From positions 184,264,001-184,328,000 of the forward strand of contig OZ024740.1 in NCBI GenBank assembly GCA_964016885.1: 64,000 nucleotides of DNA, in the 5' to 3' direction. A program made the translations under genes and the position numbers. This document shows, in pieces, positions 1 to 37,385 of the stretch (position 1 is the stretch's first letter; the number at the start of each line of letters is the position of its first letter). The notes under the pieces were generated by a model. It made no database searches and had not been told where the DNA came from. It saw only the letters and a list, made by a program, of their open reading frames with translations. Source of the stretch: Eledone cirrhosa. Its lineage: Eukaryota.

Positions 1-1454
1 ACTGTCCGTATTTTCAGCAGTGATATATGTATGCAGTTTGGTATTGGTAAATGTGGAGTCATTGTGATGAGGAGGGGTAGGTTGAGCAGAAGTAACGGGA
101 TCCAGATACCAACAGGTGAGATGATAAAGGAAATTGACTCTGAGGAAGGATACAAGTATTTGGGCGTTCTGGAGGCTGATGGCATAAAGAACAAAAAAAT
201 GAAGGAATTGTTAAGAACTGAATACATTCGGAGAGTAAGGAGCGTATTGAAGTCACATCTGAACAGCAGAAATGCCATAAGCGCAGTAAATTCCCGAGCT
301 GTGTCTATTATTAGGTACAGTGCGGGAATTCTGAGATGGAATGTTGCTGAACAAAAAGAAATGGATAGGAAGACTAGGAAGCTATTGACTATCTACAACA
401 TGTTCCACAAGAGGAGTGATGTCGATAGACTCTACCTAAGGAGATCTGAGGGTGGAAGAGGTCTTATCAGCATAGAGGACTGTGTTCAGATGGAGAAAAA
501 CAACCTATACAAATACGTGACCTATAGTAAGGAGCCAATGCTCAGAGCTGTACTGAAGGAGGGGAGAGTAGGCCAGGGGATACCCAAGGAGGAAATAACA
601 TCAAGGAGGAAGAGCAGCCTTAAGGGAAAATCCCTTCATAGTACCTTCTTTGAGAAAACTGAATTTAGAGATCCACAGACATGGAACTGGTTGAGAAGAG
701 GAGACCTCAAAAAGGCTACAGAAGGAATGCTAATGGCTGCGCAGGAGCAGGCCCTCAAAACGAAGTGGTTGAAGCACCATATCTACAAGGAGGAGGCTAG
801 CCCACTGTGCAGGATCTGTGGAGAGAGAGAGGAGACTGTGGCTCACATTGTGTCCGAGTGTAAACACCTAGCCCAGACCCACTATAAGGGCTGGAGACAC
901 GATGTGATGGGCAGGGTGATCCACTGGCACCTGTGCAAAGTAAACAATCTACCACATTCTGAGAAATGGTATGAGCATAGGCCAGAGGCGGTGATGGAGA
1001 ACAGTCAGGTGAAGGTGCTGTGGGATTTTAGGATACAGACGGACAAAAAACTGGAACACAATAGACCTGACCTGGTGGTTGTGGACAAAGAAAAAAGATC
1101 GTGCCTGATTGTGGATGTGGCCTGCCCGTTCGACACGAGAGTGCAAGAGAAGGAGAGGGAGAAAATTAACCGATACCAGGACCTAAAGTGGGAGGTGAAA
1201 AGGATTTGGAACTGCCATGAAGTCAAAGTGATCCCGATTGTCATAGGCGCACTGGGGACTATCTCCAAAGGTTTCCAGGGATGGTTAAAGAAAATCGGCC
1301 CCTTCACGCTTTTTGGAACGCTTCAAAAGGCATGCTTGCTTGGAACGGCAAGAACCCTCCGATACGTCCTGAATATCTGAGGCTGCAGGTAGTGGCTTGA
1401 TATTCAATCCAACGGACTTTCCAGTTAACCAACATCAATGACTGAGATTCAAGG
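1..1454 (+). mobile_element. R4/Dong-clade (RLE-type) non-LTR retrotransposon, 3' part (Dong copy A), running off the left window edge
   Basis: ORF ends in RT thumb, CCHC and PD-(D/E)xK endonuclease motifs; short 3' UTR ends directly in (AAT)n. Confidence 0.9.
31..1380 (+). CDS. C-terminal part of RLE-retrotransposon polyprotein (RT thumb, CCHC zinc knuckle, restriction-like endonuclease)
   Basis: YKYLGV, GGRGL, CRICGEREETVAHIVSEC, RHD, RPDLVVVD...DVACP...KINRY; frame is open back to position 1, so the true start lies upstream. Confidence 0.9.
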   Translation: MQFGIGKCGVIVMRRGRLSRSNGIQIPTGEMIKEIDSEEGYKYLGVLEADGIKNKKMKELLRTEYIRRVRSVLKSHLNSRNAISAVNSRAVSIIRYSAGILRWNVAEQKEMDRKTRKLLTIYNMFHKRSDVDRLYLRRSEGGRGLISIEDCVQMEKNNLYKYVTYSKEPMLRAVLKEGRVGQGIPKEEITSRRKSSLKGKSLHSTFFEKTEFRDPQTWNWLRRGDLKKATEGMLMAAQEQALKTKWLKHHIYKEEASPLCRICGEREETVAHIVSECKHLAQTHYKGWRHDVMGRVIHWHLCKVNNLPHSEKWYEHRPEAVMENSQVKVLWDFRIQTDKKLEHNRPDLVVVDKEKRSCLIVDVACPFDTRVQEKEREKINRYQDLKWEVKRIWNCHEVKVIPIVIGALGTISKGFQGWLKKIGPFTLFGTLQKACLLGTARTLRYVLNI

Positions 1455-1466
1455 AATAACAATAAC

Positions 1467-9151: not shown

Positions 9152-9183
9152 AATAATAATAATAATAACAATAATAATAATAA

Positions 9184-9868
9184 CTACTTCATGTCAGGTG
9201 AAGTACCAGAGTGATTGACAAAAGGTACCACAGTTTTGGTAATGAAAGACTCAATCAAGTGTAATGATGTTACCAACTATAGGCGTATCACGTGTCTGTC
9301 CGTAATGTGGAAACTGTTCACAAGCATTGTGTCTGAGGAAATCTACCATCACTTCCGCATAAACAAATTGTTACCGGACGAACAGAATGGATGCCGAAAG
9401 AAGTCCCGTGGTACAAAAGACCAGTTACTTATTGATAAGAGGGTAATGAGGAATTGCAAGAGGAGGCATATTGGCCTTGCCATGGGATGGATAGATTACA
9501 AAAAGGCATTCGACGTGGTACCTCATTCTTGGATAACCAAAAGACTAGGGATCTTCAAGAGCGCAAGAAATGGAGAGGGAGAAAATTAACCGATACCAGG
9601 ATTTAAATTTAAAAAGGATTTGGAACTGCCATGAGATAAAGGTTGTCCAGATTGTCATAGGCGCACTAGGTACTATCTCAAAGAGTTTCTAAGGATGGTT
9701 AAAGAAGATTAGTCAAGCCCCATTTTTTGGAACACAACAAAAGGCATGCTTGCTGGGAACAGCAAAAACCCTCCAATACGTCCTGAATGTCTGAGGGTGC
9801 AGGTAGTGGCTTGATATTCAATTCAACAAACTTCCCAGTTAAATAACATCAATGACTGAGACTCAAAG
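9184..9868 (+). mobile_element. Dong copy B, 5'-truncated with a large internal deletion
   Basis: RT N-terminal motifs NYRRITCL, EQNGC, WIDYKKAFD joined at about 9565 to the endonuclease end and 3' UTR; (AAT)n on both sides. Confidence 0.85.
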
Positions 9869-9901
9869 AACAACAATAATAATAATAATAACAATTATAA
9901 T

Positions 9902-12900
9902 GCTTTCTTTATGAACGACAAGGGTTTACGCAAAGTAGACATTAAGGACAGTACAGGACAATAAAGGACGGTACAAATGGGCATTTCTGCGTGTAAAAAA
10001 ACAGAGGATGTAAAAAAAAAAGAGGAACGAAAAATTCCCCAATAGGGTGGAGAGTTCCGAGGGCCATCGTGGAGAAAGCCCATTAAAAAAAAAACCACGG
10101 AGACCCTGACCACAAGGGCAAGTGCCCTCTCCCAGTTTCCCACCTTCAATTTACAGGCATATACTCAGCGTAGACCTATGCACTCGGGCCATTCTTGCCT
10201 CGCTCACCCATCTTTCAACAAAATGCTGGGAAAAGAGCACTTCCCGCTCTACCCTGATTTTTTCTTTTTCAAATGAAATTTGAAAAAGGAAATCAGGGCA
10301 TCACCGAAGAGGTAAGTGTTCGTCTTAAGCCCTTTGAAACGTGTCCACCATACTATCACTTTGGCCATGGCCACCAGACAGATAAAAACTGCCTGCCCTT
10401 CCCGGCTAAAGGAAGAGGGCGCGGAAATCCTCACGATGGACTCAGCTGATAGCAGGATCCGTTCTTCATGCGACAGCATAAATCCACAAGTCAGGAATGC
10501 TCGGACACTGGACGAGTGCATGCAGGACCGTTCGTCGCCCTGCGCGCATCTCGGACATGCCCAGCTGACGGGACTTCCATGCCTGTAGAGTTTATCCCGA
10601 ACTGGCAAAGCTCCTCGGTCGCACTGCCAGGCCAGGGATTTCTGGAAATTGTACATAGGCCCCGGCCCGAAAGTACTTCCGAAGAGATTGGCTAGTTGAT
10701 TTTCGTCGACGCCTAGAGGTTCCCCAAGTACGTCGTCGCTCTTCCCCGCCACCAATCCTCTATAGAACGCCAAGGTGGAGTTTCCACCTATCAACTTGCC
10801 CCATTGGTCGAGGGCTGTGAGCGCCTGAAGACATTCCAGTCTCCAAGCTCTCCCTCTCGGTCTTCGCTTGACCCAGAACTACAACTCCGTCAAGGATACG
10901 AGCTGGGGAAAGACGCGTCTAGCAAACGGCGACCACACCTGATTACCGTCGAGGAAGAGGTGGAGATGTCGTAGCCTGAGCGCATGTCTGCGCATCATCA
11001 GCCACAGCATGCCCAGCCCACCACGTAGCGGGTGTTGACAGCAGATAGACCGCCGGACCATCGGAGCGCGTCCCTTCCACAAAATGCGATTAAAGCAAAC
11101 GCTCTAGCGCAGTCAGGTGGGGCTTAGGAGAAGTTACGACAGTCAGGCGGTAGTAGATGAGTGACGCGATGTACGCGTTAGCCATCTTCTCTCGACCTGT
11201 CAGGGATAGCTTCCTCTCCGCCCATTTCTGGGTGAGAGAAGCCAACCTGCTCGTCCCCTCGTCCCAGTTTTTGTCCGTCTGGATGTCCGGACCGAACCAG
11301 ACCCTAACAATTTAACCGGTCTGTCCGTCCAGCGTCGACAACGCTGTTGGACGGCATGGACCTGCCTCTCCAGGTGCCGAGCTACAGGCCCACTGACTTT
11401 TCCTGGTTGATAATTGCTCCTGTCACCGCTTCGTATTCTTTTAGTGTAGTGCCGATCGCCTCGATGTGTTTGGCATTCGACACCACTACGGTTACATCGT
11501 CCGCATAGCTGACACATGATCTTCCTCATTCTAGTTTGCGCGGGACGTCCCTCATCGTCTCCAGTTTGTGCAGTAATGTCTTGAGAGTCAATCCTCAATC
11601 CGGCCCTCCGTTGCCCCCGAACAGCTGAGCGAAGTGTCGCTGAAAAGCTTCACACATTTGTCCGGGATCGAGTAGCATGCGCCCGTCGTGGTCCACCAAA
11701 GACCGGATCGTGGATTTGTTGCCAGGACGCGCCTCGGCCACTCGGGCCCATTGAACGGCTTTAGTCCCCTCGTGCACGCACCCTAGCTTTGACAACGCAG
11801 CCTTCGTGCTTTGCATTGAAGAATTGGTCAAGGGCCAATTTCGCCGCAAGTACGTCGGTCGCAATGCCTTTGCTAAGCGCTTCGTCTAATTGTCTCATTA
11901 TATCCCCCTCTGCTCTATTTTTCTCTATTGCTAAAGCCTTACTAAACCTAATCCACTCTATTCTAATCGCTCATTTCAGAGCTAACAACCACTTGTTGTT
12001 GACGATGGTCTCCGTCAACGCCCGCTTAACCTGTCCTAATCCGGTCTATGTAGGCCTTGCTCGCTGGTAAGGACGCGTTTAGGTTCCAGTAGCCGGGCCC
12101 TCGTCTATGAAGCCTATCTAAGTCAAGCACACAGATCACGAATTTGTGGTCCGTGTAGCTGACTATCTTGAATTGTGGACTGCCTATGCTAGACCTATCT
12201 ATTTCCCTACAAAATACTCTATCTAGATATAATCTGGATGACCCGATGCGGTTTGTCCAAGTCCACTTTAGCAGATTCGTGAAATCCAATCGGTACCTGT
12301 GAGACAGTTCAAAACGCCTGAGCAGGTTGCACTCTCCTATCCGCTAATCCCACACAGTCCCAGCGTGCATCAAAGATCCCGTTGCAGTCGCCCACTAACA
12401 CTAGAGCGCGGGACGTTGCAGGAAAGGTCTCCAGACGCCGGAAGAAATAAGGCCGCCTTGCTCCTGTAGGGGAATAGACGGCCACTAGCCTAAAAGATTG
12501 CCCGTCTCCGCTGGTCACGTCCAGTACCACCAAGTTACCTTCTGGGTCCAGGAAGAGGGCCCGTATGGCGAGATCCAAACCTCTCCGAAAAAGCACAGCA
12601 ACTCCACCCCCGATCCAGGACGGCTGGGAGATGCGTACACATCGTAGCCGCCGAAGATCGGTGCGAAGGCCCGTGCTTCGGAGATTCTGGTCCTGCTGAT
12701 GGCCACTACATCTATGTTTAGTGACCTGCGGTCGTTGAGCAAGTGGCCCTGTTTCCATGACGACCCCAGGCCACGCGCATTTATGCTGCCTATTCTGAGT
12801 TAGGTCATGTTGAAATGGTGTGGAAAAGATGGGAAATACCACTTACCTTACTTCTCGTGGAGGAAGGATGGTTTCTCCATCCTTTCCACTTGATCGTCTG

Positions 12901-15044
12901 GTGAAGGGACTGTTGACTCGTCGCTTCAGCTGGTCGTCGGCTCTTCTATGAGGATATCCGAATATACTCTCCGGTTGAGTGTCCCTCCTAGGTCTCTGAA
13001 ATCACCAACTGCGTTATGGAATTTTATTTTAATGTTTTTTTTATTGTTTCTGTGCTATTCTTACCAGTCTTATGTTCGTTGGTGTTTTGATTGGTGCTGG
13101 TATTATGTAGTCGTGCTGTGAAATGTCTGTGTGTTCAATTATGTAAGTCATTAGTTTCTTGTGTGTATTTATTGCTGTGCATTTCTTTTTCTGGGGGTGT
13201 GGTGTGGTTCTGCTATTGTCTTGTCGTTGTTGCTGGGTGGTGTGTGGTTTGTTGTTGTGATTGCGATGTTGGTGCTTGTGGTGGTGGTGTTGAAAGTGTT
13301 GTTGTTGTTGGCGGTGGGGTTGCCGCCGGTGGCGATGGTGGTGCTAGTGTGGGTGGTGATGGTGTTGGTGGTGTTGCTGCTGTAAGTCTCTTTGCAGTAG
13401 CCTTTACCCTTTTTTCATTTCTTCCCTCCCTTTTCGAAGGCGACGATGCGCTGCTTCTGCGTTTGTGCCTTATTGCGCCATTTTGCCATCCCTCTCCCAA
13501 CTACTGCTGCTGCTGTTCTTGATTTCCATGGTGTGGTATGGGTGCGCATGACCTATCCTTCCTGCTTGCCGCCTGTCCTCTTGCTGGTAACAGTGGAGCC
13601 GGTATCGGAAGGAGGGAGGGGGTCCTCCTTTCTCAGTTTCTTCTCATTGCAGAAGGCCCTGAGGTGAGTCTTCGACCCACAGCGAAAGCATTTCGGGCGT
13701 TTGCCCTCAACACTTATGGGCAGTTGAGTGCCGTTATCGAAGTCTATCACATCCGGGATAGCTTCTATGCACTCCTGGTTGGTTTTAATTAACATCTCAA
13801 TGGAGGTGCCTACACAATCTTCTCGTACTTTTTTCTGTAGTTACAGTACAGTTGTTTTGTCCTCGATTCCGACGAGGACAGACGCGGCCAGCCAAGAAGG
13901 GGCCATCCCGGGCGGGGGTCAGTTTGACCTTCGCAATTTTTTGCCCGCAGTAGGAGGGCACCAACACCATTTCCTTGCTCTTTAGCGTCACTAAGGATTG
14001 AGCCTTTGCCTCCTGGGGTGTGGCAAAAAGCACGTCCACGGTGGCATATTTCTTGCCCCGGGTGATATTCCTTTTCCGCTGCCACACAGACCCTATGGCT
14101 GTTTGTATTTTGGGCCTCTGTTGCACTTTCAACCCTACGTGGTTTTGTGCTTACTGTACGGTACGTGACCGTAGAGTGCTGTTGGGTTTCGAAAAATATT
14201 TCGGCTGACTTGCAGATTGCTCTGTGTCCGGCTTTCGTCACCATCTTCTTTGCTTCTTGTAATTCCTCATTTGTTATAAGAATGGTTTCCAGGTTCTTTG
14301 CGATACCTGCAAACGAGATTGGTTTTTCTTTGTTGTTGTTGTTGTTGTTGTTGTCGTCAGAGCTGCTGTTACTGTTGTTGTTGCTGCTGGTACTACGACC
14401 GCCACCGCCGCTGTTGCTGTGGTTGTTGTTGTTGCTGCTGCTGGTTTTGTTGTTTATGCTGCTGCTGGTGTTGTTGCTTATGCTGCTGCTGGTGTTGTTG
14501 CGGCTGCTACTAGTGTTTTCCCTGTCACTGTTGCTGCTGCTGCTATTATTACGGATGCTGCTGCTGTTCTTCATGGCGTCAGACGAAAGAAATGGCTTTC
14601 CGTATTTACCGCACACATTTTTCGTCGTTGTCGTCGTCGTGGAGAAATGTTCCACGGAATACACGTTCTCTTGGTGAAAGCTACCAGAAACTATATTTTT
14701 CTTTTTCTTTAATGGCGTCGCTTGCGAAAGAGGCGACACCACATTTAGAGGAGGGAGGGAGAGAGACAATTTTCTCTCAGATGTAGTGACGATTGATGAT
14801 GAAGAAGAAGAGGGAATGAGTGGGAGTGACTCGTGAAAATTATTGTTTTGTAGCCATGTCTTTTTGGGTTTAAAATGAATATTACCCTGAAGGGCCAGAT
14901 AACGGACAGAAAGACCCCTCTCACGAGGAGGTGGAGGGTGTTTTTATCTACAAATTGGTTCAAGTTTTAAACAATTTACAATTGTTATAGCGGTTAAAAA
15001 TTACTATACCTTACAGAGCCGAGCCTCCGTCAACCATGGCATTC
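9902..15044 (-). mobile_element. Tx1-type retrotransposon copy 3, near full length, with much of RT deleted at about 11590
   Basis: ORF1 pieces (13810..14769; knuckle CFRCGSKTHLRAFC), APE and C-terminal ORF2 pieces; both ends at (AAT)n (9869..9901, 15045..15107). Confidence 0.85.
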
Positions 15045-15085
<41 letters not shown>

Positions 15086-15107
15086 TAATAATAATAATAA
15101 TAATAAT

Positions 15108-18100
15108 GTTTTCTTTATTAACCACAAGGGTTTACATAAAGTAGACATTAAGGACAGTACAGGACAATACATAACGGTACAAATGGGCATTTCTGCGTGT
15201 AAAAAAACAGAGGATGAAATAAAATAACAAAGAAAAATTACCCAATAGGGGGGAGACTTCCGAGGGACATTTGTGGAGAAAGCCAATTAAAAGACCACAG
15301 TGGCCCTGACCACCAGGGCAGGTGCCCTCTCCCAGTTTTCCACCTTTAATTTACAGACACATACTCAGAGAAGGCCCATTCACTCGGACCGTTCTTCCTC
15401 TCTCACCCATCTTTCAACAAAATGCTGGGAAGAGAGCACTTCCCTCTCTACCCAGATTTTCCTTTTCAGATGAAATTTGAAAAAGTTAATCAGGGCATCA
15501 CCGAAGAGGTAAGTGCTCGTCTTCAGCGCTTTCAAACGTGTCCACCATACTATCTCTTTCGCCATGGCCACCAGACAGATAAAAACTGCCTGCCCTTCCC
15601 GGCTAAAGGAAGAGGGCGGGGCAATCCTCACGATGGACTCAGCTGATAACTGGATCCGTCCTACACGTGACAGCAGGTGTACGACATAAACCCACAAGTC
15701 AGCAATGCTGGGACAATGGACGAGTGCGTGCAGGACGGTTTCGTCGCTCTGCGCGCATCTCGGACATGCCCGGCTGACGGCACCTCCATGCCTGTAAAGT
15801 TTATACCGAACTGGCAAAGCACCCCGGTAGCACTGCCAGGCCAGGGATTTCTGGAAGTTGTCCATAGGCCCCGGCCCGAAAGTACTTCCGAAGAGATTGG
15901 CTAGTTGATTTTCGTCGACGCCTAGAGTTTCTCCAAGTACGTCGTCGCTCTTCCCTTCCACTAATCCTCTATAGAACGCCAAGGTGGAGTTTCCACCGAT
16001 CACATTGCCCGATTGGTCAAGGGCTGTAAGCGACTGAAGACATTCCAGTCTCCAAGCGCTCCCTCTCGGTCTTCGCTTGACCCAGGACTGCAGCTCCGTC
16101 AAGGAGACGAGCTGGGGAAAAACGTGTCTAGCAAACGGCGACCACACCTGATCACCGTCGAGGAAGAGGTGGAGATGTAGTAGCCTAAGCGCGTGTCTGC
16201 GCATCATCAGCCACGGCATGCCCAGCCCTCCACGTAGCGGGTGTTGACAGCAGATGGACCGCCTGACCATCGGAGCGCGTCCCTTCCACAAGAAGCGAAA
16301 GAGCAAACGCTCCAGCGCAGTCAGGCGGGGCTTAGGACAAGGTACGACGGTCAGGCGGTAGTAGATGAGTGACGCGATGTACGCGTTCGCCACCTCCGCT
16401 CGACCTTTCAGGGATAGCTTCCTCTCGGCCCATTTCTGGGTGAGAGAAGCCACCCTGCTCGTCACCTCGTCCCAGTTTTTGTCCGTCTGGATGTCTGGAC
16501 CGAACCAGACCCCTAGCAATTTAACCGGTCTGTCCGTCCAGCGCCCGACGACGCTGTTGGACGGCATGGACCTGCCTCTCCAGGTGCCGAGCTGCAAGCC
16601 CACTGACTTTTCCTGGTGGATCATTGCTCCTGTCACCGCTTCGTATTCTCTTAGTGTAGTGCCGATCGCCTCGATGTGTTTGGCGCTCGACACCACTACG
16701 GTGACATCGTCGGCATATGCTGACACGGATCTTCCGCATCCTAGTTCGCGCGGGACCCCCCTCAACGGCTCCAGTTTGTGCAGTAATGGCGCGAGAGTCA
16801 ATACGTACAATAGGGTCGAGAGGGGACATCCTTGGCGGACCGAGCGCATGATTGTGAACGGTTCCGAAAGGTGACCGTTCACTCTCACTACAGAGCAGAT
16901 GTCGCTGTGCATGGCAGCGATCCAGCCTCTGAAGACGGGCCCAAAGCCAGCCGCCCTCAGGACTGCCGCTAGGTAACGATGGTCGACCCTATCAAAGGCT
17001 TTCGACTGATCTAAATTGATCAAAGACCCACCCGCGCCATGTTCCTTAGCTACCCTCTCTACGATGTATCGCATGAGGTGGAGGTTGTCGTGAATGGATC
17101 TGTCGGGAATGGCGCATGTCTGTGCCTCTCCCACCAGACCACCAACGACAAGCGCCAACCTCTTTGCTAGCACCTTGGCCAAAATCTTGAACTCTGTGTT
17201 TAGCAGAGTTATGGGCCTAAAATTATCTTTGTTATCCCCCTTGTTCGGATCCTTTCTCAGCAGCGCCGCCGCTCCTCGGCTCACAGAGCTGGGAATTCTC
17301 CCGTTCTGTTGCCAGTTGCAGTAGACGTCCGCCAAGAGGCCTCCGAACAAGTTTGGCATTTGTACGTAAAGTTCATAGGGCAGACCATCCAAACCAGGCG
17401 ATTTACCCCTTGTGCAACTAGTCATTCCATCCCGTACTTCAGCGGTTGTTATCGGCTTTTCGCAACACTCCGCCTCAGTGGCCGAAAGCCGCGGTAGTCC
17501 GTCGAGGTAGACACTAAAGTCCATCCCTTGATCCGGCCCGCCACTGCCCCCGAACAGTTGAGCGAAGTGTCGCTGAAAAGCTTCACACATTTGCCCGGGA
17601 TCGAGTAGCATGCGCCCGTCGTTGTCCACCAAAGACCGGATCGTGGCTCTGTTGCCAAGACGCGCCTCCGCCACTCGGGCCCATTGAACGGCTTTCGTCC
17701 CCTCGTGTCTGAGAGCACGCACCCTAGCTCTGACAACGCAGCCTTCGTGCTTTGCATTGAAGTATTGGTCAAGAGCCAATTTCGGCGCAAGTGCGTCGGT
17801 CGCGATGCCTTTGCTAAGCGCCTCGTCTAATTTTCTAACTAATTCTCCCTCTGCTCTATTTTTCTCTATTGCTAAAGTCTTACTAAACCTAATGGACTCT
17901 ATTCTAATTGTTCTTTTCAGAGCAAACCACCACTTGTTGTTGACGATGGCCCCCGTCAACGCCCGCTTAACTAGTTCGCTAATCCGGTCTCTGTAGGCCT
18001 TGCGCGCTGGTAAGGACACGTTTAGCTTCCAGTAACCAGGGCCTCGTCTATGAAGTCTATCTAAGTCAAGCACACAGATCACGAATTTGTGGTCTGTGTA

Positions 18101-19119
18101 GCTGACTATCTTGAATTGTGGACAGCCTATGCTAGACCTATCTATTTCCCTACAAAATATTCTATCTAGATATGATCTGGATGACCCTATGCGATTTGTC
18201 CAAGTCCACATTAGTACATTCGGGAAATCCATTCGGTACCTGTCAGACAGTTCAAAACGTCTGAGCAGGTTGGTGAGACTCTTGCACCCTCCTTCCCTAT
18301 CCACTAATCCCACACAATCCCAGCGTGCATCTATGATCCCGTTCCAGTCGCCCACTAACACTAAAGAGCGGGACGTTCCAAGAAAGCTCTCCAGACGCCG
18401 GAAGAAATCAGGCCGCCCTGCTCCTGTCGGGGCATAGACGGCCACTAACCTGAAAGCTTGGCCGTCTCCGCTGGTCACGTCCTGCACCACCAACTTACCT
18501 TCTGGGTCCAGGAAGATGGCCCGTATGACAAGATCCGAACCTCTCCGAAAAAGCACAGCAACTCCTCCCCCCGATCCCGGACGGCTGGGAGATGCGTACA
18601 CATCGTAGCCGCCGAAGATCGGTGCGAAAGCCTGTGCTTCGGAGATTCTGGTCTCGCTGATGGCCACTACATCTATGTTTAGTGACCTGAGGTCGTTGAG
18701 CAGGTGGCCCTGCTTCCATGACGACCCCAAGCCACGCGCATTTATGCTGCCTATTCTGAGTGAGGTCATGTTGAAAAGGAGTGGAAAAGATGGGAAAGAC
18801 CACTTACCTTACTTCTCGTAGGGGAAGGACGGTTTTTCCATCCTTTTAACTGCTTGTGGCCTCCTCAGGAAGGATGTCCTTATGAATCCTCCTGGAGAGT
18901 GCTTGTCGGAAGTCTCCGATGTCTTTGGGGAATTTTTGTTTTAGTGTCATGTACGTTTTCTGTGTGATGCGAGTGATTTGTATGTGTGGAGGTGGGGTGA
19001 ATTTTGGGGTTGTTGTGTAGTCTTTTTCTGTGATGCTGGTGTTGTGTTGGATGTAGTGTAATAATTGGTTGTTGTTCAAATTTAATGCTGTGTAGTGTGT
19101 ATCGTTTTGGTTGTTTTGT
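15108..19119 (-). mobile_element. Tx1-type retrotransposon copy 4, 5'-truncated upstream of ORF2
   Basis: Uninterrupted ORF2 plus 3' UTR ending AATAAAGAAAAC(ATT)n. Confidence 0.92.
15380..18769 (-). CDS. Tx1-type ORF2: APE endonuclease, reverse transcriptase and C-terminal CCHC finger (1129 aa)
   Basis: INARG, ISET, GDWNG, YLDRIF, YTDH; GKSPGLDG, NFRPITLL, LDQSKAFD, VRQGCPLS, YADD; CPRC...HALVHC. The last residues appear frameshifted relative to sister copies. Confidence 0.93.
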   Translation of the reverse strand: MTSLRIGSINARGLGSSWKQGHLLNDLRSLNIDVVAISETRISEAQAFAPIFGGYDVYASPSRPGSGGGVAVLFRRGSDLVIRAIFLDPEGKLVVQDVTSGDGQAFRLVAVYAPTGAGRPDFFRRLESFLGTSRSLVLVGDWNGIIDARWDCVGLVDREGGCKSLTNLLRRFELSDRYRMDFPNVLMWTWTNRIGSSRSYLDRIFCREIDRSSIGCPQFKIVSYTDHKFVICVLDLDRLHRRGPGYWKLNVSLPARKAYRDRISELVKRALTGAIVNNKWWFALKRTIRIESIRFSKTLAIEKNRAEGELVRKLDEALSKGIATDALAPKLALDQYFNAKHEGCVVRARVRALRHEGTKAVQWARVAEARLGNRATIRSLVDNDGRMLLDPGQMCEAFQRHFAQLFGGSGGPDQGMDFSVYLDGLPRLSATEAECCEKPITTAEVRDGMTSCTRGKSPGLDGLPYELYVQMPNLFGGLLADVYCNWQQNGRIPSSVSRGAAALLRKDPNKGDNKDNFRPITLLNTEFKILAKVLAKRLALVVGGLVGEAQTCAIPDRSIHDNLHLMRYIVERVAKEHGAGGSLINLDQSKAFDRVDHRYLAAVLRAAGFGPVFRGWIAAMHSDICSVVRVNGHLSEPFTIMRSVRQGCPLSTLLYVLTLAPLLHKLEPLRGVPRELGCGRSVSAYADDVTVVVSSAKHIEAIGTTLREYEAVTGAMIHQEKSVGLQLGTWRGRSMPSNSVVGRWTDRPVKLLGVWFGPDIQTDKNWDEVTSRVASLTQKWAERKLSLKGRAEVANAYIASLIYYRLTVVPCPKPRLTALERLLFRFLWKGRAPMVRRSICCQHPLRGGLGMPWLMMRRHALRLLHLHLFLDGDQVWSPFARHVFPQLVSLTELQSWVKRRPRGSAWRLECLQSLTALDQSGNVIGGNSTLAFYRGLVEGKSDDVLGETLGVDENQLANLFGSTFGPGPMDNFQKSLAWQCYRGALPVRYKLYRHGGAVSRACPRCAQSDETVLHALVHCPSIADLWVYVVHLLSRVGRIQLSAESIVRIAPPSSFSREGQAVFICLVAMAKEIVWWTRLKALKTSTYLFGDALINFFKFHLKRKIWVEREVLSSQHFVERWVREEERSE

Positions 19120-19685
19120 TGGAGACTTGATGTGATGGGCAGCGTGATCCACTGGCACCTATGCAAAGTAAACAATTTACAACATTCTGAGAAGTGGTAT
19201 GAGCATAAGCCAGAGTCGGTGATAGAAAACGATCAGGTGAAGGTGCTGTGGGATTTTAGGATAGAGGCGGACAAGAAACTTGGATAACAATAGACCTGAC
19301 CTGGGGGTTTTGAACAAGGAAAAAAGATCATGCCTGATTGTGGATGTAGCCTGCCCATTCGACACGAGAGTGCAAGAGAAGGAGAGGGAGAAAATTAACC
19401 GATACCAGGACTTAAAGTGGCAGGTAAAAAGGATTTGGAACTGCCATGAAGTCAAAGTGGTCCCGATTGTCATAGGCGCACTAGGTACTATCGCAAAAAG
19501 TTTCCAAGGATGGTTAAAGAAAATTGGCCCCTTCACGCTTTTTGGAACGCTTCAAAAGGCATGCTTGCTGGGAACAGCAAGAACCCTCCGATACGTCCTG
19601 AATACCTGAGGCTGCACGTGTGGCTTGATATTCATTTCAACAAACTTTCCAGTTAACTAACATCAATGACTGAGACTCAAAAAAC
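19120..19685 (+). mobile_element. Dong copy C, 3' fragment fused head-to-head to Tx1 copy 4
   Basis: Matches Dong A from about position 892 to its 3' end; tail (AAT)n 19686..19718. Confidence 0.9.
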
Positions 19686-19717
<32 letters not shown>

Positions 19718-19718
<1 letters not shown>

Positions 19719-19892
19719 TGTTTCTACTTTTGGCACAAGGCCAGCAATTACCCTGTACATTACTTGTACTTTATTTTATCGACCCCGTAAGGATGAACGC
19801 AAAGTTAACCTCAATAGGATTTGAACTCAGACTGTAAATGGACGTAAGTATGCTGGAAAGCATGGCGTCCGACCTCACACCGATACTGCCAA
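19718..19892 (-). mobile_element. tRNA-derived SINE family 1 with (ATT)n tail
   Basis: A-box-like TGGCAGTATCGG, B-box GAGTTCAAATCC, 3' end GGCCTTGTGCCAAAAGTAGAAAC(AATT); (AAT)n on both sides. Confidence 0.8.
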
Positions 19893-20079
19893 TAATAATA
19901 ATAACAATAATAATATGTGCAAAATATCAGGAAAGTTATGGACAGTTGATGGAGACAAATTCAGTAATACCTAACACCACTGGTTATGGTCTGCTACCAC
20001 AAAATATTTGGATTTTTAACGTTATCTTAGAAAATAGTGCAATAGTATTAATATTAATAATGACAATAATGATAATATA

Positions 20080-20820
20080 TGTGTAAAGGAAAAATGACTG
20101 GTTGATGGAACTTGAATTGGAAGGAATCAAAAGGAAAATACTTGAAGAAAGTATGAATGAAGAAATTGATGAAAATGAGGGACTTAAAAGGAGTGATGGC
20201 GAGTCTACAGTAAATGAAAAAAGAAAGATTGGTAGTAGAAATAAGAAAGAATTAAGTATGGAAGATCAAAATGCTGTCAGAAATTTATCAAATGATTAAA
20301 AAGGAGGGATTCCCAGATTACAACGATTTCAAAAAGGTGCATACTGGTCAGCTGGAAAACATGACAGGTAAAGTGAATAGATTAGTTTGGTATAAAAAGT
20401 AGGAAATATCACAGAAGAGAATAATTTTAATCTGTGCTGGAACAACATGTAGTAAAGATGTTGGGACTAAAAAGTAAAAAAAAAAGAAAAACAGAGCCGT
20501 GATGGGAAGAAATGTATTCAAATGGATATAAAGATTTAAGGCGAGATGTAAATATAGTTGAGAGAAAGACCTGGGGTCAATTGAGATATGAAAATAAACA
20601 AAATGAACTAAACTAAAAATACAAATCCAGGAGAATGGATTGGATGTTTTTTTAGAAACGCTAAAACAGAGACTGACAGCTAAAACAGAGACTGACAGCT
20701 AAAACAGAGACTGACAGCTAAAACAGTGAAAATTAAAAAGGATGACGAGAGATTAGCTCATTACGGACAAAATTCGAGCATTTAAGACAGAAAAGAAGAC
20801 ATTCTATCAAAAACTTAATG
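20080..20820 (+). pseudogene. Degenerate N-terminal ORF region of an R4/Dong-type element
   Basis: WLMELELEGIKRKI, DIKDLRRDVN, LETLKQRLTAK-like segments; 19-bp unit CTAAAACAGAGACTGACAG repeated 3 times at about 20661..20727. Confidence 0.5.
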
Positions 20821-21649
20821 AATATATAAATAATATTTATAGTAAATATTATTACTATAAATTATATTTTCATTACTATAAATAATATTTATAATATTCA
20901 TTACTATATATAATATTTATAGTAATAATATTTATAGTAATGTACTGGGTAATTGCTGGCCTTGTGCCAAAAGTAGAAACAATTATTTATAGTAATAGGA
21001 GCTCATGGATGGATAAAGTACCAGTAATGTACTGGTGTCGATTTAATGCACTTTTCCCTTCCCCAAATTGTTGGCCTTGTGCGTAAATCAGAAACCAGTA
21101 TTAATATTATCATTTATATTATTATTATCATTTATATTATTATTATCATCATTATTATTTTGCATATTATCACTACATTACTGAGCACGGCTCAGTGTAC
21201 CTTGAATATGTGCAGTGTGGGTTTTGGTGATGTTGTTTCTATTGTATTGAGACTACTCTTTGTAATATGTGTTCAGTGTTTAGTAGTGTTATTTTTTTGC
21301 ATGGTGTATAAAATGCTAAGTCCTGGGATTTGGGTTTTGCATCTGTCTGTCAGTTTTGTTATCATTACCAGAGCACACATTATTATAGGTATTGTTTCTT
21401 TTTTCATCATCCACATTCAGATTATTTTTATCTCCAGATAATTTCTATTTGGTTAGCTTCTCCATTTCCATGATAGATGTATTGTCGTCTGTGTTGATTG
21501 ATACATCAATTAGAAGATACGTTTTGTTTGTAGTTTTATTATTATTAGTAGCAGTATTGTTGTTGTTGTTATAACTCTGCCAAACAGTGCAGATGGATAA
21601 TGCACCGGAGTATTTAGTCATCTGTCAAGTCACAACAAGGACATCAAAC

Positions 21650-22090
21650 AGATAATACTTTCCTCAGAATGTGTACAGTACCTAGCAAAGCCACCTTTTA
21701 TATGATACCTAACCTGTATGGTTTCCTAGTGGCTTTAAACAGTTTTGAGGTTTCAGTGAGATTGATCTAATACCCGATCACAACTGGTATCACTTTCACA
21801 TTAGCCTCTTGCATTCCAAATAGTCTTGCCAGTTCCACTTTCAATTCAGAATATTTGGTGATTTTTTTCAATCTCCTTACTTGTAATATTCATACCATTT
21901 GGTATGGCTATGTCTATGATCTGACAGTATTTGTCTTTCTTGTTCAGTGCAACAATGTCCGGTCGGCAATGCTTAATTACTCTATCAGTTGGAAAATCAT
22001 AATCCCAGAATATCGTTGCTTTCCCATCCGCCTGCATTATTTTACAAGGCACATGCTCATACCAATTCCATATGATTTCATGTTGGTATT
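21650..22090 (-). pseudogene. Old R4/Dong-type endonuclease fragment
   Basis: WYEHVP...IFWDY...HCRPDIVALNKKDKYCQIIDIAIP. Confidence 0.7.
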
Positions 22091-22130
22091 TATGATACAA
22101 GTCATTGTTATTATTATTACTATTATTATT

Positions 22131-22360
22131 GGGTGGTGGAATTGGACACCATACTGGTAGAGCATTGGACACCATACTTTGCAGCATGCAGTTATGGCCC
22201 TTTACGTTCTGAGTTCAAATCCCGCCGAGGATATCTTTGCATTTCATCTTTATGTGGTCGATAAAATAATACACCAGTAATGCACTGGTGTCGATTCAAT
22301 CGACTTTCCCCTCCTCTTCAAGTTGCTGGCCTTGTGCCTATAGAAACAATTATTATTATT
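22131..22360 (+). mobile_element. SINE family 1 copy flanked by (ATT)n
   Basis: GAGTTCAAATCCCGCCGAGG B-box; GGCCTTGTGCCTATAGAAACAATTATT end. Confidence 0.75.
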
Positions 22361-22380
22361 GACACAAGCTATAATTATAT

Positions 22381-23253
22381 AACTCCACCTTGACTTTTTA
22401 TAGAGGATTAGTGGAAGGAAAGAGCAACAACGTCCTTGGGGAAACTCTAGGCGAAAACCAACTAGCCAATCTTTTCGGGAGAACTTTCGGGCCGTGTCCC
22501 ATGGACAACTTCCAGAAATCACTAGCCTGACAGTGCTACCGAGGAGCCTTGCCAGTTCGGGATAAACTCTATATGCATGGAAGTGCCGTCAGCTGAGCCT
22601 CTCGGAGATGCGCACAGGGCGATGAAACCGCCCTGCACGTACTCGTCCAGTGTCCGAGCATTGCTGATTTGTGGGTTTATGCCGAACATCTGCTGTCACG
22701 TGTAGGAACGGATCTGGCTCTCAGCTGAGTCCATCGTGAAGATTGCCCTGCCGCCTCCCTTTAGCCGAGAAGGGCAGGCAGTTTTTATCTGCCTGGTGGC
22801 CATGGTGAAAGAGATTGTATGGTGGACACGTCTGAAAGGTTTCAGGACCGGTACTTTCCTCTTCGTGACGCCCTCATTAACTTTTTCAGGTTTCACCTGA
22901 AGAGGAAAATCAGGGTGGAGAGGGGAGGCGCTGACCTCCAGCCAGTTTGTTGAAAGGTGGGTGAGAGACGCAAGAATGGCCCGTGTGAATGGGTATACCC
23001 TCAGCGTGTGCCTGTAGCATTGTAGGAGGAAAACTGGAAGAGGGCATTTGTCAGGGTAACCGTAGCTTTTCTTGATGGCTTTCTCCAAGAGCAACCCTCT
23101 GAGGTCACCCCGCTATTGGGAATTTTTCATTATTTCCATTTGTCACACTCTGTTTTTTTTTTTTTTTTTACATACAGAAATGCCCATTTGTATTGTCCTG
23201 TGTTGTCCTTAATGTTAAACTTTGTGTCAACCCTTGTGGTTAATAAAGAAAGC
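22381..23253 (+). mobile_element. Tx1-type 3' fragment (copy 6)
   Basis: Matches the ORF2 C-terminus and 3' UTR; ends AATAAAGAAAGC then (ATT)n 23254..23301. Confidence 0.85.
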
Positions 23254-23301
23254 ATTATTATTATTATCATTAGTATTATTAGTATTATAATTATTGTTAT
23301 T

Positions 23302-23862
23302 TTTGTGTCTCAGTCATTGATGTTATTTAAATGGAAGGTTTGTTGAAATGAATATCAAGCCGCTACCTGAAGCCTCAGATATTCAGGACATATCGGAGGG
23401 TTCTTAATGTTCCCACCAAGCATGCCTTTTGAAGTGTTCCGAAAAGTGGGGCTGGACTAATCTTTTTTAACCATCCTTGGAAACTCTTTCAGACAGTACA
23501 TAGTGTGCCTATGACAATCGGGACGACCTTGATTTAATGGCAGCTCCAAATCGTTTTACCTTCCACTTTAAGTCCTGGTATCGGTTAATTTTCTCCCTCT
23601 TCTTTTCTTGCACCCTCGTGTCAAATGGGTAGGCTACATCTACAATCAGGCACGATCTTTGTTCCTTATCAAAAATCACCAGGTCAGGCCTATTGTGTTC
23701 TAACTTCTTGTCCGTCTGTATCCTAAAATCCCATAGCACCTTCAGCTGATCGTTTTCTATCACCCACTCTGGTTTTGCTAATACCACTTCTCAGAATGTG
23801 GTAAATTGTTTACTTTGCATAGATGCCAGTGGATCACCCTGCCTATCACATCATGTCTCCAG
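23302..23862 (-). mobile_element. Dong copy D, 3' fragment, tail-to-tail with Tx1 copy 6 and head-to-head with Tx1 copy 5
   Basis: Reverse complement matches Dong A from 891 to the 3' end (VLWDFRIQTDKKLEHNRPD). Confidence 0.9.
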
Positions 23863-26214
23863 AATCTGCTCAGGCGTTTTGAACTGTCTGACAGGTACGG
23901 TTTGGATTTCCCGAATGTGCCAATGTGGACTTGGACAAACCACATAGGGTCATCCAGATCATATCTAGATAGAGTATTTTGTAGGGAAATACAAAGGTCT
24001 AGCATAGGCAGTCCACAATTCAAGATAGTCAGCTACACGGACCACACATTCGTGATCTGTGTGCTTGACTTAGATAGGCTTCATAGACGAGGACCCGGCT
24101 ACTGGAAGCTAAACGCGTCCTTACCAGCGCGCAAGGCATACAGAGACCGGATTAGCGAACTAGTTAAGCGGGCGTTGACGGGGGCCATCGTCAACAACAA
24201 GTGGTGGTTTGCTCTGAGAAGAGCGATTAAAATAGAGTCCATTAGGTTTAGTAGGGCTTTAGCAATAGAGAAAATTAGAGCAGAGAGAGAACAAGTTAGA
24301 AAATTAGACGAGGCGCTTAGCAGAGGCATCGCGACCGACGTACTTGCGGCGAAATTGGCCCTTGACCAATTCTTCAATGCAAAGAACGAAGGCTGCGTTG
24401 TCAGAGTTAGGGTGCGTGCTCTCAGACACGAAGGGACGGGCGCCATTCAATGGGACCGAGTGGCGGAGGCACATCGTCGCAAGAAAGCAACGATCCGGTC
24501 TTTGGTGGATCACGACGGTCGCATTCTACTCGATCCTGGGCAAATATGTGAAGCTTTTCAGCGACACTTCGCTCAGCTGTTCGGGGGCAGCGGTGGGCCG
24601 GGTCGAGGGATGGACTTTAGTGTCTACCTCGACGGACTGCCGCGGCTCTCGGCCACTGAGGCGGAGTGTTGCGAAAAGCCGATAACAGCCGCTGAAGTAC
24701 GAGAGGCAATCACTGGCTGCACAAGGGGTAAATCGCCTGGTTTGGATGGTCTGCTCTATGAACTTTACGTACAGATTCCAGATTTGTTCGGAGACCTCTT
24801 CGCGGACGTCTACTGCAACTGGCAACAGAACGGGATAAATCCCAGCTCTGTGAGCCGAGGAGCGGTGGCGCTGCAGAGAAAGGATCCGAACAAGGGGGAT
24901 AACATGGATAATTTCAGGCACATAACTCTGCTAAACACAGACTTCAAGATTTTGGCCAAGGTGCTAGCAAAGAGGTTAGCGCTTGTCGTTGGTGGTCTAG
25001 TGGGAGAGGCGCAGACATGTGCCATTCCCGACAGATCCATCCACGACAACCTCCACCTAATGCGATACCTCGTAGAGAGGGTAGCTAGGGAACCTGACAC
25101 GGGTGGGTCCTTGATCAATTTAGATCAGTCGAAAGCTTTCGATAGGGTCGACCATCGTTACCTGGCGGCAGTCCTGAAGGCGGCTGGCTTTGTGCCCGTC
25201 TTCAGAGGCTGGATCACTGCTATGCACAGCGACATCTGCTCTGTGGTGAGAGTGAAGGGTCACCTTTCAGAACCGTTCAACATCATGCGCTCGGTCCACC
25301 AAGAATGTCCCCTCTCGTCCCTATTGTACGTATTGACTCTCGATCAATTAATGCACGAACTGGAGACGTTGAGGGACGTCTCGCGCGTACTAGGATGCGG
25401 TAGATCCGTGTCAGCATATGCGGACGATGTCACTGTAGTTTTGTCGAACGACAAACACACCGAGGCGATCGGCACTACACTAAGAGAATACGAAGCGGTG
25501 ACAGGAGCAATGATCAACCAGGAAAAGTCAGTGGGCCTGCAGCGCGGCACCTGGAGAGGCAGTTCCATGCCGTCCAACAGCGTCGTCGGGCGCTGGATGG
25601 ACGGACCGGTAAAATTGCTATGGGTCTGGTTCGGTCCGGACCTCCAGACGGACAAAAACTGCCAGTTCGGGATAAACTCTACAGGCATGGAGGTGCCGTC
25701 AGCCGGGTTTGTCCGAGTTCCGCGCAGGGCAACTGAACCGTCCTGCACGCACTCGTCCAATGTCCGAGAATTGCTGACTTGTGGGTTTATGTCGAACACC
25801 TGCTGTCGCCTGTAGGACGGATCCGGCTATCAGCTGAGTCCACCGTGAGGATTTCCCCGCCCTCTTCCTTTAGCCGGGAAAGGCAGGCAGTTTTAATCTG
25901 TCTGGTGGCCATGGCGAAAGAGATATTATGATGGATACGGTTGAAAGGGCTGAAGACGAGCACTTCCCTCTTCGGTGATGCCTTGATTACCTTTTTCAAA
26001 TTTCATTTGAAAAGGAAAATCGGGGTAGAGAGGGAAGTGCTCTCTTCCCAGCATTTTGTTGAAAGATGGGTGAGAGAAGCAAGAATGGCCCGAGTGAATG
26101 GGCCTACTCTGAGTATGTGTCTGTAAATAAAGGTGGAAAACTGGGAGAGGGCACTTGCCCTGGTGGTCAGGGTCACTGTGGCTTTTTAATGGGCTTTCTC
26201 CACAAATGTCCCTC
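23863..26214 (+). mobile_element. Tx1-type copy 5, 5'-truncated inside APE, internal deletion at about 25660, 3' UTR cut short
   Basis: ORF 23806..25815 is close to ORF2 of copy 4 (YTDH, LDQSKAFD, YADD). Confidence 0.88.
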
Positions 26215-26221
26215 CAATTAG

Positions 26222-26450
26222 GGCAGTGGATTGGCAGTATCGGTAGAGTGTTGAATGTCTTGCAGGATAGAGTTATGGCGTTTTACAATCTGGTCTGAGT
26301 TCAAATCTTGCCGAGGTTAGCTTTGCTTTTTATCTTAATGGGGTCAATAAAGTAAAGTACTAGTCATGCACTGGAGTCAATTTAATCAACTTTTCCCTTT
26401 CCCTTCCTCACAAATTGTGCCTAAATCTGAAACCATTATTATTATTATTT
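26222..26450 (+). mobile_element. SINE family 1 copy
   Basis: GGATTGGCAGTATCGGTAGAG...GAGTTCAAATC...(ATT)n. Confidence 0.75.
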
Positions 26451-27549
26451 AATCTTATTTTCATTGAGTGCTTCACTGTGTATACATATATTATTACAAA
26501 ATTTTACAAGTCATAATTTTATTGTCCTACATCACACTAAAAGTTGCTGTTCTCTATTTAGAAACTAAAAGTTGCTGTTCTCCATTTGAAAAAGCATCAA
26601 ATCCATCATAAATTATTTCCAAATCAATGATGTATAGTTCTTAATAATGCAATGTGATCTTTAGTAGATTAACCTTCAATAGTAAGATATATTTTTAAAT
26701 TTTATTGCATTCCAACAATTTATTCTTCACATCATCGAAGAAAAATTAATAATTCATAATTATGGAATATGTTGCTATTAAGTTGTTTAATTTTTCATTT
26801 TCCAAGTGTTTCAATAAATATAACTAAGTTTCATATCACTCAACAAAAGCACAAATTACAGTTAAAATTCAATGATTATATGAATAACATTGCATTGAAA
26901 GAAAATTTCATATACAATTTGCTCTTGCAACAAATGTATATTGTCTACTATATAATGAAACAGGTAAGGAAAAAGGAAATAACAATGTGAATTCAACAGC
27001 ATTTAAAGTTATAAAATGGCTAGATGATTCAACATCTTTGATATGAATTCAGTTTATGACAAAAATATATTTTATCTATTATGAAAAGTAAAATGATAGC
27101 CAATAAGTATGTTAACATCAATATTGTAAAGCTGATAAAGCACAAATTTTCTTGACTGGTTTTCTCAAAAGAGGTTTCACGACTACATACAAAGGTATAG
27201 AGAGAAAGGAAACAGCAATGTGTAATTCCCATATAGTTAGAAACGTTTTAGAATTTAATGTAAACTGAATTATATTCATATTACCTGAAAAATTGTAACT
27301 GGCAAATATCTGCTTGTTGTATAATAAATACTCATCATCATCATCACCATTACTTGACAAAGTCTCACCACAATTCAGGATTTTCCAGTTTTGGCAATTG
27401 CCCCATACTGAGGTTTTTATCGTCTTTGAGTTGATATATGAATGTTCAAGCAGGTTTACCTCTACTACACCTCTCGTGAGTTGGCTACAACTAGTAAGCT
27501 AGGTTAACTCCACCTTTTTCATATATTTCCATGTTACTTCTCTAACGTT

Positions 27550-28590: not shown

Positions 28591-28900
28591 CCTTCCATGA
28601 CACTGCTAAGTGAGGTCAGGGAGGCAGGTCTACTTCCTTTTTTATAAATAGGACATATTGTGCATTATTTTAGTTTTCTGGGTAGTTTACCCCTTGCAAG
28701 GAATCTATGGAAGAGGATCTGTAGTGGTTTTACTAATATCCATGTGCATGTTTTTAGGAGGACTACTGGCAATCCATCAGGGTCAGTGCCTGAATTTGGT
28801 CTTGTGTCATCTATGGCTGATATTACATCTTTCTTCTTTAAATCTATATGGTATTTGGTTGCCATTTCTTTGTGTAATGTAATGGTGTTAAAGAATTCAT
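28590..28900 (-). pseudogene. APE-type LINE RT N-terminal fragment (CR1/I-like)
   Basis: DVISAID...SGTDPDGLPVVLLKTC...LVKPLQILF...PIYKKG. Confidence 0.55.
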
Positions 28901-31671: not shown

Positions 31672-31752
31672 TGCTTTCTGAAGAGCCGAACTTTCCACTG
31701 GAAGTCACTCGTATTTCCAATCTTTTGTGAGGCGAAACCGTCGGTAAAAGCA
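31672..31752 (+). ncRNA. Type I hammerhead ribozyme (family A)
   Basis: UGCUUU-CUGAAGA-GCC(43 nt)GGC-GAAA-CCGUCGG-UA^AAAGCA; predicted cleavage after 31746. Confidence 0.85.
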
Positions 31753-31948
31753 ATATGGATAGGTACATTTTTAAATGATATTTTTGAATTTATTTTCAAA
31801 GATTGTTTGAATTTTGCTTGTGCCACTTATCTCAATTTTATAGTTCTGGTATGTCAAATTAATACCATTGAACAACAACTGTATCATAGACACCCTATAT
31901 ATTTCCAAGGGTACTTAGTACCTGTAGGAATATTGATCTCATTTTACG

Positions 31949-33234
<1,286 letters not shown>

Positions 33235-37307: not shown

Positions 37308-37385
<78 letters not shown>

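What the first reader, a model, noticed from the sequence alone, without database searches (positions are those of the whole stretch)
15045..23870. Two independent head-to-head Tx1/Dong chimeras break at the same Dong position
Seen: at 19120 and at 23862 a 5'-truncated Dong is fused, with no microsatellite between, to the 5'-truncated end of an oppositely oriented Tx1. Both Dong pieces start at (C)TGGAGAC, which is Dong A 891-892. The Tx1 breakpoints differ (upstream of ORF2 versus inside APE, about 0.85 kb apart). The Dong variants also differ (C has GGCCCCTTCACG like A; D has AGTCCAGCCCC like B), so these are not duplicates. The second junction has GTCTC microhomology with Tx1 GAGTCTCACC. 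15045..19718 reads (AAT)n-[Tx1 antisense][Dong]-(AAT)n. Inference: either two-RNA twin priming at opposite nicks of one microsatellite with a fixed stop site in Dong RNA, or a fixed-length (about 565 nt) Dong-derived RNA co-integrating with Tx1.
Basis: partly seen in the sequence, partly recalled or inferred. Interest (0 to 1): 0.85.

Follow-up and report, generated by a model that had tools for sequence, protein, structure and literature searches.

The report
Two LINE fusions sharing one breakpoint
In a pile-up of jumping genes that all insert into AAT repeats, two separate head-to-head fusions of two unrelated LINE families break the partner at the same base; this most likely reflects one element landing beside an older one, and a dedicated co-insertion mechanism is not supported so far.

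Summary
Both junctions are in the sequence; Dong pieces C (19120) and D (23862) start at Dong A 892 and 891; the Tx1 breaks lie 848 nt apart. The two are separate events: the Dong pieces are different variants (14 sites against 1) and the Tx1 copies differ in age.

Public runs laid on Dong A show no depth step and no listed end at 890-892, while other 5' ends are scattered; only a small part of those tables was shown, so a class below about a fifth of copies is not excluded. Dong D carries more disabling lesions than its Tx1 partner (p 0.003-0.012), which argues for sequential arrival. The cluster holds at least nine other deletion junctions and one unfused head-to-head pair.

Best reading (0.55): Tx1 arrived beside an older Dong in the same AAT tract and the DNA between was lost; the shared base is chance or a weak local preference. 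Rivals: Tx1 targeting this Dong codon (0.17), two-RNA twin priming (0.15). With n = 2 and no genome held, the shared base stays unexplained.

The parts
1..1455 (+). Dong A, young RLE-type LINE (3' 1.45 kb; 459 open codons); the reference for positions 891/892
9152..9184 (.). (AAT)n between a Tx1 5' end and the 5' end of Dong B: an unfused head-to-head pair
9184..9866 (+). Dong B, with an internal deletion joining the RT region to Dong A position 1138
9900..15044 (-). Tx1-like copy T2, decayed (6 stops, 15 indels against T3), AAT on both sides
15045..15107 (+). (AAT)21: tail of T3 and 5' flank of T2
15108..19119 (-). Tx1-like copy T3: open ORF2 (15380-18769; APE, RT, zinc knuckle), 5'-truncated in the end of ORF1
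19120..19685 (+). Dong C, A-type variant, begins at Dong A 892 (the W codon of WRHD); one frameshift
19686..19718 (+). (AAT)11 tail of Dong C
19719..19893 (-). dispersed short repeat (SINE by my recall) whose tail seeds the left stack
   Evidence: the label SINE is recalled
22381..23253 (+). Tx1-like 3' fragment T5, tail-to-tail with Dong D
23254..23301 (+). (ATT)16 tract shared by T5 and Dong D tails
23302..23862 (-). Dong D, B-type variant, begins at Dong A 891; 3 stops and 2 frameshifts
23863..26214 (+). Tx1-like copy T4: starts inside APE, 657-nt internal deletion at 25660/25661, 3' end and tail lost
26220..26446 (+). second copy of the short repeat, joined to the cut 3' end of T4

Best explanation
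Two LINE families use the same (AAT)n tracts in opposite orientations, so head-to-head neighbours arise routinely (shown). In each fusion a Tx1 copy arrived next to a Dong that was already there (supported for D, open for C). The AAT units and any longer Dong 5' part between them were lost, either when the Tx1 cDNA was joined to the far flank by short homology or by a later deletion (inferred). The two events are independent (shown). The shared Dong base is then chance, or a weak local preference from the GAGAC word and a hairpin over 843-907 (inferred, not shown).
For: Unfused Tx1-(AAT)n-Dong head-to-head pair at 9152-9184. At least nine other junctions without microsatellite in 1-26.3 kb: 2228/2236, 2377, about 3400 and 3660, 7238, 9558, 11586, 25660, 26214. 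Dong D more disabled than T4 (p 0.003-0.012). No genome-wide step or listed end at 891; read-derived 5' ends scattered. In-register GAGAC at junction 2 fits homology-guided 5' joining; 1-5 nt microhomology and target deletions are usual at truncated R2 and R1 5' ends (PMC2718515, passages). Four of six Tx1 copies in the cluster have AAT at or within about 20 nt of their 5' end.
Against: It leaves the shared base to a 0.3-1% coincidence or to an unproven preference. Private decay matches within each pair, as co-insertion predicts. T3 is young and otherwise undeleted over 4 kb, so a later deletion is less likely there. The hairpin is the most stable of 131 windows in Dong A, but drops to rank 8 of 121 with the majority letters and was noticed after the fact. 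The Tx1 sequence beyond 19119 could not be recovered, so homology at junction 1 is untested.
Confidence: 0.55

Rival explanations
1. Targeted insertion: this Tx1 lineage sometimes inserts antisense into Dong at the WRHD codons. The Dong base is fixed because it is the target; the Tx1 end varies because of ordinary 5' truncation. The left half of each Dong was deleted later (between two AAT tracts for C; with the T4 3' end for D).
For: A fixed site within 1 nt and variable 5' truncation is the usual signature of target-specific insertion. Dong D looks older than T4. Tx1 families that insert at fixed places in other transposons, also in opposite orientation, are described (PMC4494074, passages). 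T4's 3' flank is lost, so D cannot contradict it.
Against: No Dong left half or target duplication at the T3 tail; its neighbour T2 is older than T3, so an extra deletion must be assumed. T3 and T4 are not sisters: T4 groups with T2 at 15 sites against 8 and 7, and 5 against 1 and 2; one quartet ties at 6, 6, 1, and T2 has AAT at both ends. The Dong site is not AAT-like (score 5-6 against a best of 8). No listed loose end after about 900-910 (table cut). No head-to-head Tx1 upstream in 86 foreign loci.
Confidence: 0.17
2. Co-integration by two-RNA twin priming: a Tx1 cDNA and a Dong cDNA are primed from opposite nicks of one (AAT)n tract and join head-to-head; the Dong cDNA ends at 891 because of a hairpin stop or a processed 565-nt RNA.
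For: (AAT)n on both outer ends of fusion 1. Similar private decay within each pair, and different between pairs. In-register GAGAC overlap. The break sits between two helices of a local hairpin in Dong A. Antisense chimeras with recurrent breakpoints are ascribed to twin priming for human L1 with 5S rRNA and tRNA halves (PMC13174262, passages).
Against: No step or listed end at 891 in four runs, though the tables were cut and the joints sample Dong-Dong tandems only. Dong D has more disabling lesions than T4. The hairpin weakens from -28.4 to -19.7 kcal/mol with majority letters. It needs two different endonuclease classes, or trans use of one RT, at one site at once, twice within 5 kb. None of 44 internal starts in foreign relatives falls at residues 296-300 (coarse tblastn starts, other families).
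Confidence: 0.15
3. One ancestral junction was copied locally as an inverted duplicate or by gene conversion; the copy then lost 0.85 kb of Tx1 at the GAGAC homology and its parts were overwritten by other copies.
For: The fusions are inverted, 4.7 kb apart, in the same order next to the same short repeat. C and D are slightly closer just after the junction (56 of 60, 54 of 59). A small inverted copy exists at about 20945-20990.
Against: C and D are different variants at 14 sites against 1. T3 has 25 private nonsynonymous changes and pN/pS 0.40, T4 has 54 and 1.04 (p 0.0015). The flanking short repeats are 77-79% alike, less than either is to distant copies (up to 88%). A simple GAGAC deletion would keep the Tx1 letters before GAGAC; junction 2 keeps the Dong letters.
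Confidence: 0.08
4. One or both junctions are assembly joins.
Against: Each piece carries its own decay pattern, and the two junctions join different variants at different Tx1 places. Runs X1-X3 hold over half of the sampled words of the region.
Confidence: 0.05

Closest known systems
R4/Dong clade elements targeting (TAA)n (PMC7998251, passages; Dong-R4 and L1-Tx1 both recently active in Octopus vulgaris, PMC13282606, passages with Table 1)
   Same: RT plus restriction-like endonuclease, AAT tails and flanks, stacking in microsatellites.
   Different: Those passages describe no fusion with Tx1 and no recurrent internal break.
Antisense L1 chimeras ascribed to twin priming (5S/L1, tRNA-half/L1; PMC13174262, passages)
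   Same: Opposite orientation, head-to-head join, recurrent breakpoint in the partner.
   Different: There the partner is a small RNA and a unique TSD proves one event. Here the partner is a LINE of another clade, the flanks are microsatellite, and D looks older than its partner.
Transposon-targeting Tx1 families (Tx1 in Tx1D, Tx1-Mar in Mariner-N4_AMi, Tx1-9_AMi in Harbinger; PMC4494074, passages)
   Same: Fixed position in another element, opposite orientation, variable Tx1 5' end.
   Different: The other half of the target is not found here, and sister copies are flanked by AAT on both sides.
5'-truncated R2 and R1 junctions (PMC2718515, passages)
   Same: Short microhomology and loss of upstream target DNA at the 5' join.
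   Different: Those are joins to rDNA, not to another LINE; no fixed internal stop is described in the passages read.
Two-tailed L1 bridges from synchronous insertions in tumours (bioRxiv 10.1101/2024.08.27.596794, passages)
   Same: Two different RNAs joined with a tail at each end.
   Different: Those come as reciprocal pairs from one event and one family; here both fusions carry a Dong tail and differ in variant and age.

Membership tests
R4/Dong clade | RT followed by CCHC knuckle and PD-(D/E)xK restriction-like endonuclease | tested here: met
   Dong A shows C-x2-C-x8-H-x4-C and RPDL..DVACP..EK motifs; weak match to R2 endonuclease in solved structures, E 0.005-0.016; RT region in Dong B.
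R4/Dong clade | Insertion in (TAA)n repeats | tested here: met
   AAT tails on A, B, C, D and an AAT 5' flank on B; tandem Dong-(AAT)n-Dong joints in reads.
R4/Dong clade | N-terminal SANT/Myb-like domain | not testable with these tools
   No copy of this family has its 5' part in the window and no genome is held.
R4/Dong clade | RT phylogeny with named R4/Dong elements | not tested
   The 120 listed homologues carry no informative names; the label Dong rests on domain order, target and my recall.
Tx1 clade (L1 group) | ORF2 with APE, RT and C-terminal zinc knuckle | tested here: met
   PF03372, PF00078, PF13966; best solved-structure match L1 ORF2p, E 1e-51.
Tx1 clade (L1 group) | Separate gag-like ORF1 | tested here: met
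   T3's upstream frame matches the C-terminal part of a 623-aa protein with a CCHC knuckle, E 6e-07.
Tx1 clade (L1 group) | RT phylogeny with named Tx1 elements | not tested
Twin-priming chimera of two RNAs | Segments in opposite orientation, joined head-to-head | tested here: met
   Both junctions.
Twin-priming chimera of two RNAs | One unique TSD around the whole | tested here: inconclusive
   Flanks of fusion 1 are (AAT)n; one flank of fusion 2 is deleted.
Twin-priming chimera of two RNAs | Both parts of equal age | tested here: inconclusive
   C/T3 compatible (p 0.24-0.56). D/T4 differ in disabling lesions (p 0.003-0.012) but not in nonsynonymous rate (p 0.18).
Fixed-length Dong derivative or fixed stop site | Genome-wide excess of 5' ends at 891/892 | tested here: not met
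   No depth step and no listed end there; the tables were cut, so a share under about a fifth remains possible.
Transposon-targeting Tx1 (Tx1-Mar type) | Fixed target base with variable Tx1 5' end | tested here: met
   2 of 2 junctions.
Transposon-targeting Tx1 (Tx1-Mar type) | Other half of the target and a TSD at the Tx1 3' end | tested here: not met
   T3's tail abuts the older T2; T4's 3' end is lost, so D is uninformative.
Transposon-targeting Tx1 (Tx1-Mar type) | Target seen in over 20% of the family's flanks genome-wide | not testable with these tools
   No genome held; in the window 2 of 6 Tx1 5' ends, and these two do not form a clade.

The most novel reading that the evidence does not exclude
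Position 891 of this Dong family is a real recurrent join for Tx1 5' ends genome-wide, either because a microsatellite-targeting Tx1 also cuts Dong at the WRHD codons, or because an APE-type and an RLE-type LINE co-integrate at one (AAT)n tract with a defined Dong cDNA end. I found neither described for this pair in six literature searches.
Probability: 0.3. Interest if true: 0.7.

Novelty: new member of a known kind. Interest (0 to 1): 0.3.

Why it matters
If ordinary, it shows how two LINE families with one microsatellite target build deletion-ridden stacks, and warns that such stacks give striking coincidences. If the site recurs genome-wide, it would be either cross-clade co-integration of two autonomous LINEs with different endonucleases or a LINE-on-LINE target site that destroys the partner's endonuclease link. 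Both can be tested directly from an assembly.

Tried and rejected
No whole genome is held, so the decisive histogram could not be made. Exact-pattern scans for this Dong family found 0 stretches in metagenome and viral contigs; the protein scan found none in viral contigs. 86 foreign relatives (best 80 of 195 confirmed in a scan that covered 28 of 64 parts, plus 6) gave 44 internal starts, none at residues 296-300, and no head-to-head Tx1. No RNA holder listed; this says nothing on expression. Splicing: no AG before 891 and no GT after it on the other strand; a donor-like CAG/GT in Tx1 antisense fits junction 2 only, rejected. Near-cognate AAT target at the Dong site: unremarkable score, rejected. 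Rfam over 1-29000: 4 weak matches below their thresholds, none at the site, no ribozyme. A bacterial promoter scan of 800-950 is not informative for an animal. Recovering the Tx1 sequence beyond 19119: no hit, best relative 41% identical. Two of the 15 read-derived ends used are doubtful (position 1 is the edge of the stretch; 627 looks like a divergent relative), leaving 13. Earlier notes on this genome or on look-alike sequence: none.
Full report
Verdict. The two fusions are real and independent, and they do share a Dong breakpoint. The proposed fixed stop site or fixed-length RNA is not supported by the read data I could see, and sequential arrival in a deletion-rich stack is the more likely origin. 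The shared base itself is not explained; n is 2.

Setting. Positions 1-26.4 kb are a stack of two LINE types and a short dispersed repeat. The other has RT and a restriction-like endonuclease and an (AAT)n tail; I keep the name Dong on the same footing. Both sit in the same tracts in opposite orientation. The repeat make-up looks like an octopod genome (my recall); Dong-R4 and L1-Tx1 are both listed as recently active in Octopus vulgaris (PMC13282606, passages with Table 1) and as expanded in coleoids (PMC8967140, passages). No genome is held for the window.

The observation. Dong C starts at Dong A 892 and Dong D at 891. The Tx1 partner T3 ends at 19119, about 90 codons before the ORF1 stop; T4 starts inside APE, 848 nt further in. 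No AAT lies at either join. At junction 2 the word GAGAC matches in register but begins 3 nt inside the Dong side, and the crossover itself has no shared base; such a run occurs at 16 of 4004 Tx1 positions. The Tx1 letters beyond junction 1 could not be recovered.

Independence. Over Dong A 1138-1455 the four copies split A+C against B+D at 14 sites, C+D together at 1; the B/D variant word also shows in runs X4, X5 and X21. T3 has an open ORF2, 25 private nonsynonymous changes and pN/pS 0.40 on 490 codons; T4 has 54 and 1.04 (p 0.0015). The short repeats flanking the two fusions are 77-79% alike, less than to distant copies. A local duplication is therefore unlikely.

Age within pairs. Private nonsynonymous decay is 2.2% (T3) and 2.7% (C), 4.8% (T4) and 6.6% (D), with no significant difference within pairs; D's figure includes subfamily changes. 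Disabling lesions tell otherwise for fusion 2: 5 in 486 nt of D against 2 in 2229 nt of T4 (p 0.003; stops alone 0.06, frameshifts alone 0.03; 0.012 if T4's two large deletions are counted). Fusion 1 is uninformative (p 0.24). This favours Tx1 arriving second, moderately.

Genome-wide test. I laid 4 of the 23 listed runs on Dong A 1-1450 at 80% likeness. In X1 (11,937 contigs laid) depth rises gradually toward the 3' end with no step at 891 (log step -0.08, sd 0.32 between bins); the tool warns that this depth is no copy number. None of the shown rows lies at 890-892: 15 of 373 joints, 12 of 173 rows of letters between, 24 of 1856 loose ends, 11 of 22 begin/end places. Tandem Dong-(AAT)n-Dong joints in the RAD run X21 give 5' ends at 88, 197, 471, 569, 584, 857, 866, 1087, 1091, 1093, 1098 and 1171, and X1 shows 16 contigs joined to AAT at 1005. 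With 15 ends entered (two doubtful: 1 and 627), none is within 2 nt of 891 and the 95% upper share is 18%; with 13 it is about a fifth. These joints do not sample Tx1-joined ends, so a rare class stays possible. In 86 foreign relatives none of 44 internal starts falls at the same residue and none has a head-to-head Tx1; these are other families and coarse starts.

Local features. The stack holds at least nine other junctions without microsatellite and an unfused Tx1-(AAT)n-Dong pair at 9152-9184, the precursor a deletion would need. Dong A 841-910 is the most stable of 131 70-nt folds, and the break lies between two helices of its inner hairpin. With the majority letters from reads and from C and D the fold drops from -28.4 to -19.7 kcal/mol, rank 8 of 121, so it is a weak and after-the-fact lead. 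T2 has a 12-17 nt deletion starting within 2 nt of T4's break, which hints that GAGAC-adjacent sites break more than once here; I did not test this beyond the window.

Mechanism. Shown: shared target tract, opposite orientations, two independent events. Supported: Dong first in fusion 2. Inferred: loss of the intervening DNA at Tx1 5' joining or later; short homology and target loss are usual at truncated R2 and R1 5' ends (PMC2718515, passages). Not shown: why the same base. I put this reading at 0.55. Targeted insertion of Tx1 into Dong (0.17) explains the fixed base best and has precedent (PMC4494074, passages; PMC4640811, passages). But the Dong left half is absent at T3's tail, the neighbour T2 is older than T3, and T3 and T4 do not form a clade. 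Two-RNA twin priming (0.15) has precedent for L1 with small RNAs (PMC13174262, passages) and for synchronous L1 insertions in tumours (bioRxiv 10.1101/2024.08.27.596794, passages), and fits the matched decay rates, but not D's extra lesions or the missing peak.

Novelty. Six literature searches listed no paper on a Tx1/Dong fusion with a recurrent break; I read passages of eight papers and no supplements, and the library lacks most subscription journals. Earlier notes of this scan describe similar stacks and LINE-on-LINE targeting in other genomes; they are unchecked leads and were not used as support. The stack is a new member of a known kind. If the site proves recurrent genome-wide (probability about 0.3), it would deserve about 0.7; as it stands, 0.3.

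Noticed in passing
window 12318 (T2), 7238 (Tx), 23863 (T4): Three of four Tx1 copies that cover the APE region break within 50 nt: T2's 12-17 nt deletion starts within 2 nt of T4's break, and the older copy breaks 40 nt away.
   Followed up: partly
Dong A 1005 (run X1): 16 contigs carry (TAA)n joined at this position with 0.91 agreement, which may be a real recurring 5' end or one multiplied junction.
   Followed up: no
Dong A 1087-1098 (run X21): Four listed tandem 5' ends cluster in an A-rich run, as microhomology with the AAT tail would give.
   Followed up: no
window 26214-26220: At T4's cut 3' end two letters fit neither T4 nor the AAT tract but would fit the start of the Dong 892 word; chance is 1 in 16.
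   Followed up: partly
window 20945-20990: About 50-nt inverted copy of the internally deleted short-repeat end at 19715-19765, near the centre of the mirror-like layout.
   Followed up: no
window 3400-3660: Fragment of an older Dong-like RT region inside the 5' part of a Tx1 copy, same orientation, with no AAT flanks.
   Followed up: partly
window 12885 and 18846: T2 and T3 are about 90% alike in ORF2 but stop aligning in DNA just upstream of it; their ORF1 ends remain alike only as protein, suggesting ORF1 exchange or fast change.
   Followed up: partly
window 19915-20820, 21170-22100, 27300-28900: Three pieces of older Dong-like families; the one at 21170-22100 is 5'-truncated about 15 codons after the RHD motif, behind (AAT)n.
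   Followed up: partly
window 31075-31953 and 37383-42260: Long inverted repeats (about 260 nt at 94% and 1.4 kb at 95%) around TA-rich tracts.
   Followed up: no
L082-L086: Dong-like eukaryotic LINE pieces sit in contigs of bacterial MAGs, most likely host contamination.
   Followed up: no
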